This document shows positions 7,801 through 8,134 of a DNA stretch of 64,000 nt, one piece after another. The stretch covers positions 186,603-250,602 of the forward strand of contig OZ242208.1 in the NCBI GenBank assembly GCA_965206325.1, written 5' to 3'. Source of the DNA: Gammaproteobacteria bacterium (GTDB lineage: Bacteria; Pseudomonadota; Gammaproteobacteria; Tethybacterales; G965206325). Made by a program: the position numbers and the translations under genes. Below the pieces are notes generated by a model that was given only the letters and a program-made list of their open reading frames with translations, was not told the DNA's origin and did not search any database. The first letter of the stretch is position 1. Each line of letters opens with the position of its first letter.

Positions 7801-7964
7801 CGCCGCCATCAGCGCGCAGAATCGCCTGTGAATTAAAGCGCACAGCGCGCCCGCAAAGGCGTCATAAACGCCGTATAATAAGGGCTTGGCGGGAAGCATA
7901 CCCCCCCCCCCCCCCCCCCCCCCTTGCGCGGGAAAATGGGGCTGTTTTGAGCGATGTTTTTCAT
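4816..7964 (-). CDS. Trimeric autotransporter adhesin 1: 13-aa Gly/Ser/Thr repeat head, Cys module x2, collagen stalk, YadA anchor. The RBS-supported ATG at 7964 is out of frame across a G23 tract; an in-frame ATG lies at 7899
   Basis: C-terminal YadA-type anchor (DEAIAMSGAM...GVGNYQSREAMAFG...SLSIGF), signal peptide ending SLA-HH, Gly-X-Y array. Confidence 0.9.
5386..6456 (-). repeat. Collagen-like Gly-X-Y array, 119 uninterrupted triplets
   Basis: Counted from the translation, GQQ GEQ GIQ GVA GAN GQD ... GAD GQD; no Pro present. Confidence 0.95.
7901..7923 (-). repeat. G23 homopolymer (C23 on +) in the 5' coding region of adhesin 1; candidate phase-variation switch
   Basis: 23 consecutive C on the + strand, between ATG 7964 and ATG 7899. 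Confidence 0.9.
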
Positions 7965-8134
7965 TGCGGTTTCTCCGATAAAAATGGAAAAGGGACTTTA
8001 CTATACTTTTCGCCAATTTTCGCCGAATCAAAAAATTTAATTTTCCCACTCCAACCATCCGCACCCGTTAAAAATTAATTCCGCCGATGGATTCGGAACG
8101 CGGAGGCGCGCCGACGCAAGGCATCGGCACGGGG

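What the first reader, a model, noticed from the sequence alone, without database searches (positions are those of the whole stretch)
7897..7976. G23 phase-variation switch in the collagen adhesin, apparently OFF
Seen on the minus strand: GGAG (7976-7973), 8 nt, then ATG 7964 reading MKNIAQNSPIFPRK into G23. ATG 7964 is 65 nt from the in-frame ATG 7899, so with G23 it reads GGGGGGGVCFPP... to an early stop, whereas G21 or G24 fuses it to the adhesin signal peptide. Established: slipped-strand poly-G tracts in 5' coding regions switch surface proteins on and off. Inference: stochastic ON/OFF control of the adhesin. The ORF-track start at 8064 has no clear RBS.
Basis: partly seen in the sequence, partly recalled or inferred. 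Interest (0 to 1): 0.8.

Follow-up and report, generated by a model that had tools for sequence, protein, structure and literature searches.

The report
Poly-G frame switch in adhesin gene
A run of 23 G's sits just inside the start of a surface-adhesin gene of an uncultured betaproteobacterium, and ten strain genomes carry 14 to 27 G's there, four of them in frame, so it behaves like a classic slipped-strand on/off switch, a well-known kind of control.

Summary
From ATG 7964 the frame stops after 43 codons. G21 or G24 would fuse it to the adhesin.

The gene encodes a trimeric autotransporter with 120 collagen-like GXY triplets and a YadA anchor.

The run is 14, 18, 20, 20, 21, 22, 23, 24 or 27 G's and is never interrupted. 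RBS, ATG and leader are conserved. In four strains ATG 7964's equivalent opens a 1430-1547 aa ORF. Six alleles, including the window, are out of frame, yet the adhesin ORF stays intact in all of them.

As a control, seven G/C runs in purL keep the modal frame in 88 of 98 cases.

Caveats:
- "OFF" is uncertain here. ATG 7899 is in frame and the run itself is a strong Shine-Dalgarno mimic, though that ATG is usable in only 2 of 10 alleles.
- Long-run lengths may be off by one.
- The whole lineage is crowded with long G/C runs inside housekeeping genes, which is the more unusual feature.

Verdict: a new member of a known kind.

The parts
8141..8170 (-). Intrinsic terminator of the upstream paralogous adhesin gene. 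It marks the upstream limit of the adhesin's own control region.
   Evidence: 13-bp stem with 9 GC pairs, followed by a T-run. Conserved in the strains.
8000..8005 (-). TATAGT, a -10-like hexamer (inferred promoter element). The best -35-like hexamer, TTGATT at 8031-8026, is 20 nt away, so a promoter is not established.
   Evidence: The sequence is conserved in all ten alleles. It resembles the paralog's TTGACA-17-TATAGT. The consensus scan found no promoter.
7973..7976 (-). Shine-Dalgarno GGAG, 8 nt upstream of ATG 7964.
   Evidence: -6.6 kcal/mol with the anti-SD. Conserved in all ten alleles.
7924..7964 (-). Start codon ATG 7964 plus the 41-nt leader encoding MKNIAQNSPIFPRK. This is the conserved translation start from which the tract sets the frame.
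   Evidence: The gene caller uses this start in the four in-frame strains.
7901..7923 (-). Uninterrupted G23 run (poly-Gly codons when in frame). This is the slipped-strand element.
   Evidence: It is 14-27 G's in the nine other strains.
7833..7964 (-). The 43-codon out-of-frame ORF that ATG 7964 opens at the present length. It overlaps ATG 7899 and stops 24 nt before the internal ATG 7809.
7897..7899 (-). ATG one base after the run, in frame with the adhesin. It is a possible tract-independent start in this allele only (and in L084).
   Evidence: the poly-G/anti-SD duplex is -11.1 kcal/mol; in frame in 2 of 10 alleles; ATC in 3.
7732..7899 (-). Long N-terminal secretion-signal region: a 56-aa stretch ending in the hydrophobic core FVAAILALALALPMPSLA, just before HH. 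It contains the internal ATG 7809, which has no SD.
   Evidence: homologous to the N-termini of the paralog and of P0001 from about 20 residues before the internal Met. There is no Pfam ESPR match. The cleavage site is inferred.
4816..7899 (-). Adhesin ORF (1027 aa from ATG 7899). It has two head modules of 13-residue SGxIxT repeats, each ending in TETGICGSADNAQCGDFV, then a collagen-like stalk and a YadA anchor.
5377..6456 (-). 120 consecutive GXY triplets (collagen-like stalk).
   Evidence: (PF01391, E = 1.1e-45).
4825..4992 (-). YadA-like membrane anchor.
   Evidence: PF03895, E = 5.8e-12.

Best explanation
The G-run is a slipped-strand mispairing tract inside the 5' coding region of a trimeric autotransporter adhesin gene.

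Translation starts at the conserved GGAG-ATG 7964 and reads a 14-residue leader into the run. The number of G's, together with a few 1-nt indels right next to the run, decides what follows. Either the ribosome continues through a poly-Gly stretch into the long secretion signal and the adhesin (ON), or it stops after 30-43 codons (OFF).

Replication slippage changes the length often enough that closely related strains differ. The population therefore holds a mix of adhesin-expressing and non-expressing cells.

In this window the state is G23+T, which is out of frame from ATG 7964. The allele may still make some adhesin from ATG 7899, which lies in frame one base after the run and uses the run as its ribosome-binding site.

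Shown: the anatomy, the length polymorphism, the in-frame alleles and the intact ORFs in out-of-frame alleles. Inferred: which start codon is used, slippage within a clone, and the effect on protein level.
For: 1. Anatomy is as described.
2. Ten alleles from strain-resolved genomes about 1% apart carry G14, 18, 20, 20, 21, 22, 23, 23, 24 and 27, eight distinct lengths, all uninterrupted.
3. RBS, ATG and leader are conserved in all ten.
4. In L085, L088, L096 and L099 the upstream ATG opens ORFs of 1430, 1530, 1547 and 1461 aa, and these are the called gene starts.
5. The six out-of-frame alleles all keep the 3-4.8 kb adhesin ORF open down to the anchor. This is expected for reversible switching, not for decay.
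6. Internal control: seven G/C runs of 10-19 nt in purL keep the modal frame in 88 of 98 strain-by-site observations, with some changes of exactly 3 nt. The adhesin run is out of frame in 6 of 10 (Fisher p = 6e-4; p = 1e-4 without contigs below 10x).
7. Alleles with the same flank haplotype differ in run length: C-flank 18/20/23, CA-flank 20/21/22, no-insert flank 14/23/24/27. The run therefore changes faster than its flanks.
8. The rival start ATG 7899 is ATC in three alleles and out of frame in five.
9. The run lies downstream of the -10-like hexamer and of the RBS, not in a promoter spacer.
10. A direct precedent exists: Moraxella catarrhalis Hag, also a trimeric autotransporter, is switched by a poly-G tract near the start of its ORF (PMC1931440).
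Against: - No read-level or expression data exist, so switching within one clone is not shown.
- Frames are spread 4/4/2, which is what unselected drift would also give (binomial p = 0.74).
- Long G/C runs are everywhere in this lineage, including housekeeping genes. The run could be a by-product of a mutational bias rather than an evolved switch.
- In this window and in L084, ATG 7899 is in frame and preceded by an SD-like G-run (-11.1 kcal/mol against -6.6 for GGAG). Expression there may not depend on run length.
- Assembly calls of runs of 15 nt or more differ by +1 in some contigs, so any single ON/OFF call is uncertain.
- The fused N-terminal signal would be about 78 aa long, which is unusually long, and it has no Pfam ESPR match.
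Confidence: 0.68

Rival explanations
1. The run is not coding. It is the 5' untranslated region and expanded Shine-Dalgarno element of an adhesin that starts at ATG 7899 (or an equivalent). ATG 7964 opens a fortuitous upstream ORF. Run length is then neutral, or it tunes initiation or mRNA structure (for example a G-quadruplex), rather than setting a frame.
For: - The G-run pairs with the anti-SD as strongly as the paralog's AGGAGG (-11.1 against -11.2 kcal/mol), and ATG 7899 follows it.
- A start at 7899 gives a 56-aa signal, close in length to the paralog's 45 aa. Homology to the paralog and to P0001 begins near there.
- A run free of frame constraint would be expected to be the longest and most variable in the region, as observed.
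- The gene caller picks this ATG in L084.
Against: - The ATG is missing (ATC) in L082, L088 and L099. It is out of frame in L085, L089, L096, L097 and L098. On this reading 8 of 10 alleles, including the three most abundant strains, would have no start codon.
- 1-nt indels between the run and GCCAAGCCC are common. They would be lethal to this start, but a coding tract upstream can compensate for them.
- In four alleles the supposedly fortuitous upstream ATG runs on for more than 1400 codons.
Confidence: 0.17
2. The run is a neutral by-product of the lineage-wide expansion of G/C runs in a dispensable, decaying gene. Out-of-frame alleles are simply broken pseudogenes and nothing is being regulated.
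For: - G/C runs of 9 nt or more are about 270 times denser here than in other betaproteobacterial loci, and they sit in many unrelated genes.
- The locus is dispensable. Three strains lack the adhesin and one has a different 5' end.
- The neighbouring paralog carries a plain 1-nt frameshift in this window.
- Frames are spread as chance predicts.
Against: - All six out-of-frame alleles keep a 3-4.8 kb repetitive ORF free of any further stop or frameshift.
- The run is uninterrupted in 10 of 10 alleles, whereas purL runs often carry stabilising A/T interruptions.
- The RBS, start and leader are intact everywhere.
Confidence: 0.1
3. The length differences are assembly or sequencing errors at a long homopolymer. 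The true run is one fixed, in-frame length.
For: - Runs of 15-17 nt in housekeeping genes differ by +1 in some contigs. A 4x contig has +1 at three purL sites.
- The three highest-coverage strains (107x, 97x, 92x) are all in frame.
Against: - The lengths span 14 to 27, far beyond plus or minus 1.
- The four in-frame alleles themselves differ (20, 22, 23, 27).
- 90% of purL run calls keep the frame, so calls are mostly right.
- A second, independent assembly (ERZ25069315 contig_1) has the same runs.
Confidence: 0.04

Closest known systems
Moraxella catarrhalis Hag/MID: translational phase variation of a trimeric (Oca) autotransporter by a poly-G tract near the start of the ORF (PMC1931440)
   Same: The protein class is the same (YadA-anchor adhesin with a repetitive passenger). 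A G homopolymer lies a few codons after the start, inside the long N-terminal signal region. Frame is set by run length.
   Different: - The run here is much longer: 14-27 G's, against roughly 10 or fewer for such tracts as I recall.
- The host is an uncultured deep-branching betaproteobacterium.
- The passenger is unrelated (SGxIxT repeats plus a 120-triplet collagen-like stalk).
- Some alleles carry a second in-frame ATG right after the run.
- No expression data exist here.
Neisseria pilC1/pilC2: a poly-G run in the signal-peptide coding region
   Same: A G-run inside the signal-peptide coding part of a surface adhesin gene, giving a frameshift ON/OFF switch.
   Different: The protein family differs (pilus-associated adhesin), the run is shorter, and no DNA uptake sequences of Neisseriaceae occur in this window.
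Transcriptional homopolymer switches: N. meningitidis opc poly-C in the promoter (PMC3960869) and M. catarrhalis uspA1 poly-G upstream of the ORF (Lafontaine 2001, cited in PMC1931440)
   Same: A G/C homopolymer of variable length next to an adhesin gene.
   Different: Those tracts lie in or before the promoter or 5' UTR and alter transcription. Here the run is downstream of the RBS and ATG, and no promoter hexamers flank it.
Poly(A) frameshifts in housekeeping genes of insect endosymbionts, rescued by transcriptional slippage (Blochmannia, PMC3017870; review PMC5009743)
   Same: This is relevant to the side observation only: long homopolymers inside housekeeping genes, some alleles out of frame yet retained.
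   Different: Those are A/T runs in AT-rich, tiny genomes. Here the runs are G/C runs of 13-19 nt in a 56% GC, roughly 2 Mb genome. RNA polymerase slippage on G/C runs is not established (PMC6260861 treats A/T only).

Membership tests
Translational phase-variable (contingency) locus with a homopolymer in the 5' coding region | Uninterrupted homopolymer of about 8 nt or more inside the ORF, shortly after a start codon that has an RBS | tested here: met
   G23 begins 42 nt after ATG 7964, which has GGAG 8 nt upstream.
Translational phase-variable (contingency) locus with a homopolymer in the 5' coding region | Run length differs among close relatives by numbers not divisible by three, while the flanks stay conserved | tested here: met
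   Lengths of 14-27 G's in ten alleles from genomes about 1% apart. Alleles with the same flank haplotype differ in length.
Translational phase-variable (contingency) locus with a homopolymer in the 5' coding region | Some lengths give a full-length ORF from the start codon and others give an early stop. The downstream ORF is intact in OFF alleles. | tested here: met
   Four alleles give 1430-1547 aa. Six stop after 30-43 codons, yet their adhesin ORFs stay open to the anchor.
Translational phase-variable (contingency) locus with a homopolymer in the 5' coding region | More variable than comparable runs under frame constraint in the same genomes | tested here: met
   The adhesin run is off frame in 6 of 10 alleles. 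The purL runs are off the modal frame in 10 of 98 observations (Fisher p = 6e-4).
Translational phase-variable (contingency) locus with a homopolymer in the 5' coding region | High-frequency, reversible length change within one clone or population | not testable with these tools
   This needs the reads of ERZ25069326/ERZ25069315 or a culture. Only consensus contigs were available.
Translational phase-variable (contingency) locus with a homopolymer in the 5' coding region | Protein level follows run length, and the upstream ATG is the start codon in use | not testable with these tools
   No expression data are available. The competing ATG 7899 is in frame in this window.
Trimeric autotransporter adhesin (type Vc secretion) | C-terminal YadA-like membrane anchor | tested here: met
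   PF03895, E = 5.8e-12, in the last 60 residues.
Trimeric autotransporter adhesin (type Vc secretion) | N-terminal Sec signal, then a repetitive head and a stalk passenger | tested here: inconclusive
   There is a hydrophobic core ending ...PMPSLA before HH, SGxIxT repeats and 120 GXY triplets. No signal-peptide predictor was available, there is no Pfam ESPR hit, and the head matches no Pfam family.
Trimeric autotransporter adhesin (type Vc secretion) | Trimerisation and adhesive function | not tested
   No structure prediction or assay was done. Collagen binding is not implied by the collagen-like repeats.
Transcriptional phase variation by a promoter-spacer homopolymer | The run lies between the -35 and -10 hexamers or upstream of the transcription start | tested here: not met
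   The run is downstream of TATAGT (8005-8000), of the RBS and of ATG 7964. The scan finds no promoter-like pair around it.

The most novel reading that the evidence does not exclude
The adhesin switch may be only the most visible case of a lineage-wide trait. These roughly 2 Mb genomes carry 0.2-0.4 G/C runs of 9 nt or more per kb, about 270 times the density in other betaproteobacterial loci.

Most of these runs lie inside housekeeping genes: purL (seven sites), a nuoG-like gene, fdhD, radA, uvrB and pabBC.

Some out-of-frame alleles occur in high-coverage genomes. The purL G17 allele is found in contigs at 34x and 107x, and L090 carries it as A+G16. The purL C18 allele is found at 15x and 47x. 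uvrB and fdhD carry +1 alleles at 21x.

If these alleles are real, one of two things follows. Core metabolism and DNA repair may switch stochastically across the population. Or frames may be restored during expression by polymerase or ribosome slippage on G/C runs, which is not established in bacteria.
Probability: 0.2. Interest if true: 0.75.

Novelty: new member of a known kind. Interest (0 to 1): 0.35.

Why it matters
For the adhesin itself the result is ordinary. It adds an uncultured, deep-branching betaproteobacterium with an unusually long tract to the list of bacteria that switch a surface adhesin by homopolymer slippage.

Three practical points follow:
- Strain-resolved long-read metagenomes can stand in for the classical colony-to-colony comparison. 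Ten natural alleles gave the tract-length test without a culture.
- Gene callers place the adhesin start at three different sites in these strains (upstream ATG, post-tract ATG, internal Met). Annotation of this gene family is therefore unreliable unless the tract is taken into account.
- The many G/C runs inside housekeeping genes split genes such as purL, fdhD and uvrB in some assemblies. They deserve a study of their own, as a mutational regime and as a possible case of frame rescue.

Tried and rejected
**Finding relatives**
- An exact search for the leader DNA in metagenome contigs gave 0 hits.
- A protein search with the hypothetical ON N-terminus found one hit (P0001, a third paralog without a G-run). 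A cleaner 81-aa query found nothing.
- Exact look-ups of five other window proteins were not on record. The window's own strain is therefore not among the contigs read.
- Two literature searches for the lineage or for a report of its G-runs found nothing relevant.

**Features looked for and not found**
- No tRNA and no Rfam family in the window.
- No Neisseriaceae DNA uptake sequences.
- The sigma-70 scan found no promoter around the run, so a promoter-spacer mechanism was rejected.
- No Pfam ESPR match, so I do not call the N-terminus an ESPR.

**Readings rejected or not significant**
- The internal Met 7809 as the family's start was rejected. Coding homology to the paralogs extends about 20 residues upstream of it, and it has no SD.
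- GTG 8064 and ATG 8058 as starts were rejected. They have no SD, they lie upstream of the -10-like hexamer, and the ATG is ATT in several strains.
- All three strains above 90x are ON, but by my own hand calculation (a rank test, not run as a tool call) the link between coverage and ON state is not significant with 8 values.

Full report
**1. The observation**

On the minus strand the sequence reads tatcGGAGaaaccgcaATGaaaaacatcgctcaaaacagccccattttcccgcgcaa-G23-tATGcttcccgcc. The coordinates are:
- GGAG at 7976-7973
- ATG at 7964-7962
- G23 at 7923-7901 (C23 on the + strand)
- ATG at 7899-7897

The two ATGs are 65 nt apart. The ORF from 7964 is therefore out of frame and stops after 43 codons at 7833. 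G21 or G24 would fuse it to the adhesin.

The mechanical ORF start GTG 8064 is in frame with 7899 through G23. It has no ribosome-binding site and lies upstream of a conserved TATAGT at 8005-8000. The ATG beside it (8058) is ATT in several strains. It lies about 80 nt downstream of the terminator of the preceding gene (8170-8141).

**2. The gene**

The ORF 7899-4816 encodes a trimeric autotransporter-type adhesin.
- It has a YadA-like anchor at the C-terminus (PF03895, E = 5.8e-12).
- It has 120 uninterrupted GXY triplets (PF01391, E = 1e-45).
- It has two head modules of 13-residue SGxIxT repeats that match no Pfam family.
- Its long N-terminal region ends in a classical hydrophobic core...FVAAILALALALPMPSLA, just before HH.

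"Collagen adhesin" should be read as "adhesin with a collagen-like stalk".

A paralog lies immediately upstream (10750-8244). It has a good TTGACA-17-TATAGT promoter, an AGGAGG-ATG start and no G-run. In this window it is cut off from its anchor by a single missing C near 8522/8521. Nine other strains have that C.

**3. The organism and the comparison set**

The window is 55.8% GC and has no Neisseriaceae uptake sequences.

The neighbouring ABC-2 permease is only 48-57% identical to betaproteobacterial (Burkholderiales/Rhodocyclales) genomes. The source is therefore a deep-branching, unnamed betaproteobacterium.

An exact look-up of that permease and of four variants in its 90% cluster returned 14 syntenic contigs. 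Most are circular genomes of 1.95-1.99 Mb from one ENA assembly (ERZ25069326, coverage 4x to 107x). One comes from a second assembly (ERZ25069315). They differ from one another and from the window by about 1% over 4.8 kb, with star-like distances.

**4. The test**

Ten alleles carry this 5' end: the window, L082, L084, L085, L088, L089, L096, L097, L098 and L099. All keep the GGAG, the ATG and the leader (two amino-acid changes in L085, one silent change in L096).

| Allele | Coverage | Run | Frame from upstream ATG | ORF from upstream ATG |
|---|---|---|---|---|
| window | unknown | G23 | out | 43 aa |
| L082 | 15x | G18 | out | 32 aa |
| L084 | 34x | G24 | out | 34 aa |
| L085 | 12x | G22 | in | 1430 aa |
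| L088 | 107x | G20 | in | 1530 aa |
| L089 | ERZ25069315 contig_1 | G21 | out | 43 aa |
| L096 | 97x | G27 | in | 1547 aa |
| L097 | 21x | G20 | out | 33 aa |
| L098 | 47x | G14 | out | 30 aa |
| L099 | 92x | G23 | in | 1461 aa |

- The run has eight distinct lengths and is never interrupted.
- Next to it are small indels: 0, C or CA before the run; T or TT after it; cttccc, cttcc or ctttcc; ttatta or tttta. Frame therefore depends on the run plus these.
- In the four in-frame alleles the called gene start is the upstream ATG.
- The six out-of-frame alleles stop after 30-43 codons. Even so, the adhesin ORF downstream is open all the way to the anchor in every one.
- Alleles with the same flank haplotype have different run lengths. 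The run changes faster than point mutations accumulate.

Elsewhere at this locus, one strain (L087) has a different 5' end with its own RBS and no G-run. Three strains lack the adhesin altogether.

**5. Internal control for assembly error**

The same contigs carry seven G/C runs of 10-19 nt inside purL. Across 98 strain-by-site observations the modal frame is kept 88 times. Some differences are exactly 3 nt, and several strains carry A/T interruptions. Half of the ten deviations are in contigs at 4-8x.

The adhesin run is out of frame in 6 of 10 alleles. The difference is significant (Fisher p = 6e-4; p = 1e-4 if contigs below 10x are dropped).

Run lengths in these assemblies are thus mostly trustworthy, and the adhesin run is free of the frame constraint that holds the housekeeping runs. 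An error of plus or minus one on a 23-nt run cannot be excluded for any single contig, including the window.

**6. Which start codon?**

Three candidates exist.
- **Internal ATG 7809.** It has no SD (-2.9 kcal/mol). Coding homology to the paralog and to P0001 extends about 20 residues upstream of it. It is not the family's start.
- **ATG 7899.** It follows the run by one base, and the run pairs with the anti-SD as strongly as the paralog's AGGAGG (-11.1 against -11.2 kcal/mol). In this window and in L084 it is in frame, so some adhesin may be made whatever the run length. But it is ATC in three alleles and out of frame in five others. As the species' start it would leave 8 of 10 alleles, including the three most abundant strains, without a start codon.
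- **ATG 7964.** It is conserved with its RBS in all ten alleles, and in four it opens the full-length ORF.

I therefore take 7964 as the principal start and the run as a coding-region frame switch. I flag that "OFF" in this window may be leaky. Besides ATG 7899, the 43-codon ORF ends 24 nt before ATG 7809, where re-initiation is conceivable (inference only).

**7. Alternatives**

- A promoter-spacer mechanism is excluded by position.
- Pure assembly artefact is excluded by the 14-27 range and by the purL control.
- Neutral decay is disfavoured by the intact ORFs in all out-of-frame alleles and by the purity of the run. It is not excluded, because the frames are spread 4/4/2 as drift would predict and because the locus is dispensable in some strains.

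**8. Comparison with known systems**

The closest precedent is Moraxella catarrhalis Hag/MID, a trimeric autotransporter. [quoted passage not shown]

Neisseria pilC, with a G-run in the signal-peptide coding region, is a second analogue. I recall it from memory and did not check it here.

Transcriptional tracts such as opc (PMC3960869) and uspA1 differ in position.

The present case meets every sequence-level criterion of a translational contingency locus. The within-clone and expression criteria could not be tested. It is a new member of a known kind. From my own knowledge, its run length of 14-27 is at the long end of what is described for G/C tracts.

**9. The more unusual feature**

- The window has 14 G/C runs of 9 nt or more (8 of 12 or more) and no A/T run of 9 or more.
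- The strain loci and L001 show the same density, including a G19 in a nuoG-like gene.
- By contrast, 1.25 Mb from 80 other betaproteobacterial genomes holds one run of 9 or more and none of 12 or more.
- Most runs sit in frame inside housekeeping genes and encode Gly or Pro stretches: purL, hemJ-like, fdhD, lysE, radA, uvrB and pabBC.
- Runs of 12 nt or less are invariant between strains. Runs of 15-17 nt show +1 alleles that split the gene. Examples are purL G17 in the window, L084 (34x) and L088 (107x), also present as A+G16 in L090; purL C18 in L082 and L098 (47x); and fdhD G16 and uvrB G17 in L093 (21x).

I could not decide whether these are consensus errors, real null alleles, or alleles rescued during expression. 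The nearest analogue is the rescue of poly(A) frameshifts in insect endosymbionts (PMC3017870, PMC5009743). That rescue is established for A/T runs only (PMC6260861).

This trait tempers the inference that the adhesin run is an evolved switch. It is also the lead most worth following.

**10. Verdict**

The "OFF" call is uncertain. This is a known kind of mechanism in a new host, so the interest is modest. Most of that interest comes from the strain-resolved evidence and from the lineage-wide G/C runs.

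Noticed in passing
window 373-385, 1898-1911, 1939-1947, 2288-2304, 4547-4555, 25565-25579, 26280-26288, 27312-27323, 35985-35993, 36838-36853, 51730-51744, 52526-52536, 52843-52853; also L001 2868-2886: There is a lineage-wide excess of long G/C homopolymers (9-19 nt) inside housekeeping genes: purL, hemJ-like, fdhD, lysE, radA, uvrB, pabBC and a nuoG-like gene. Nearly all are in frame and encode Gly or Pro runs. The density is about 0.2-0.4 per kb, against 1 in 1.25 Mb of other betaproteobacterial loci. No A/T run of 9 or more occurs.
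   Followed up: partly
window 2288-2304 (purL); L084, L088, L090 at 8716-8732: purL is cut short by a G17 run where 11 strains have G16. The catalytic C-terminal ~70 residues continue in another frame. The 17-nt allele occurs in contigs at 34x and 107x, and as A+G16 in L090, so it looks inherited rather than a read error. A second purL allele, C18 against C17, splits the gene in L082 and L098 (47x).
   Followed up: partly
L093 8973-8988 and 19622-19638; L094 8973-8988 (window equivalents 25565-25579 and 36838-36853): fdhD (G16 against G15) and uvrB (G17 against G16) carry +1 alleles that split or shorten the genes in a 21x circular genome. The fdhD +1 allele is also in a 7x contig.
   Followed up: partly
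window 8521-8522 (minus strand, paralogous adhesin 10750-8244): The neighbouring adhesin paralog is separated from its YadA anchor by one missing C (GACGGC-GCTTT here, GACGGCCGCTTT in nine other strains). The site is not in a long homopolymer. This is either a pseudogene or a sequence error in this strain.
   Followed up: yes
window 4816-8064 and the same locus in L083, L086, L087, L091: The adhesin locus is a variable spot. Adhesin length ranges from 1027 to 1597 aa. L087 has a different 5' end without a G-run. In L083, L086 and L091 the adhesin is replaced by unrelated genes (HNH_4, P63C, SMC/AAA-like).
   Followed up: partly
window 53304-58694 and 58704-63341 (minus strand): The RNA polymerase subunits are unusually long for a betaproteobacterium (RpoC 1796 aa, RpoB 1545 aa), with large gaps between the Pfam domains. 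This suggests lineage-specific insertions.
   Followed up: no
L082-L099 (ENA ERZ25069326, ERZ25069315): At least 14 distinct strain contigs of one species, most of them circular ~2 Mb genomes, co-exist in one assembly. They are about 1% divergent with star-like pairwise distances, which suggests a recombining population.
   Followed up: partly
window 25041-25048 (between moaA-like stop and fdhD start): An intergenic C8 run here is a 15-16 nt interrupted C/T stretch in three other strains.
   Followed up: no
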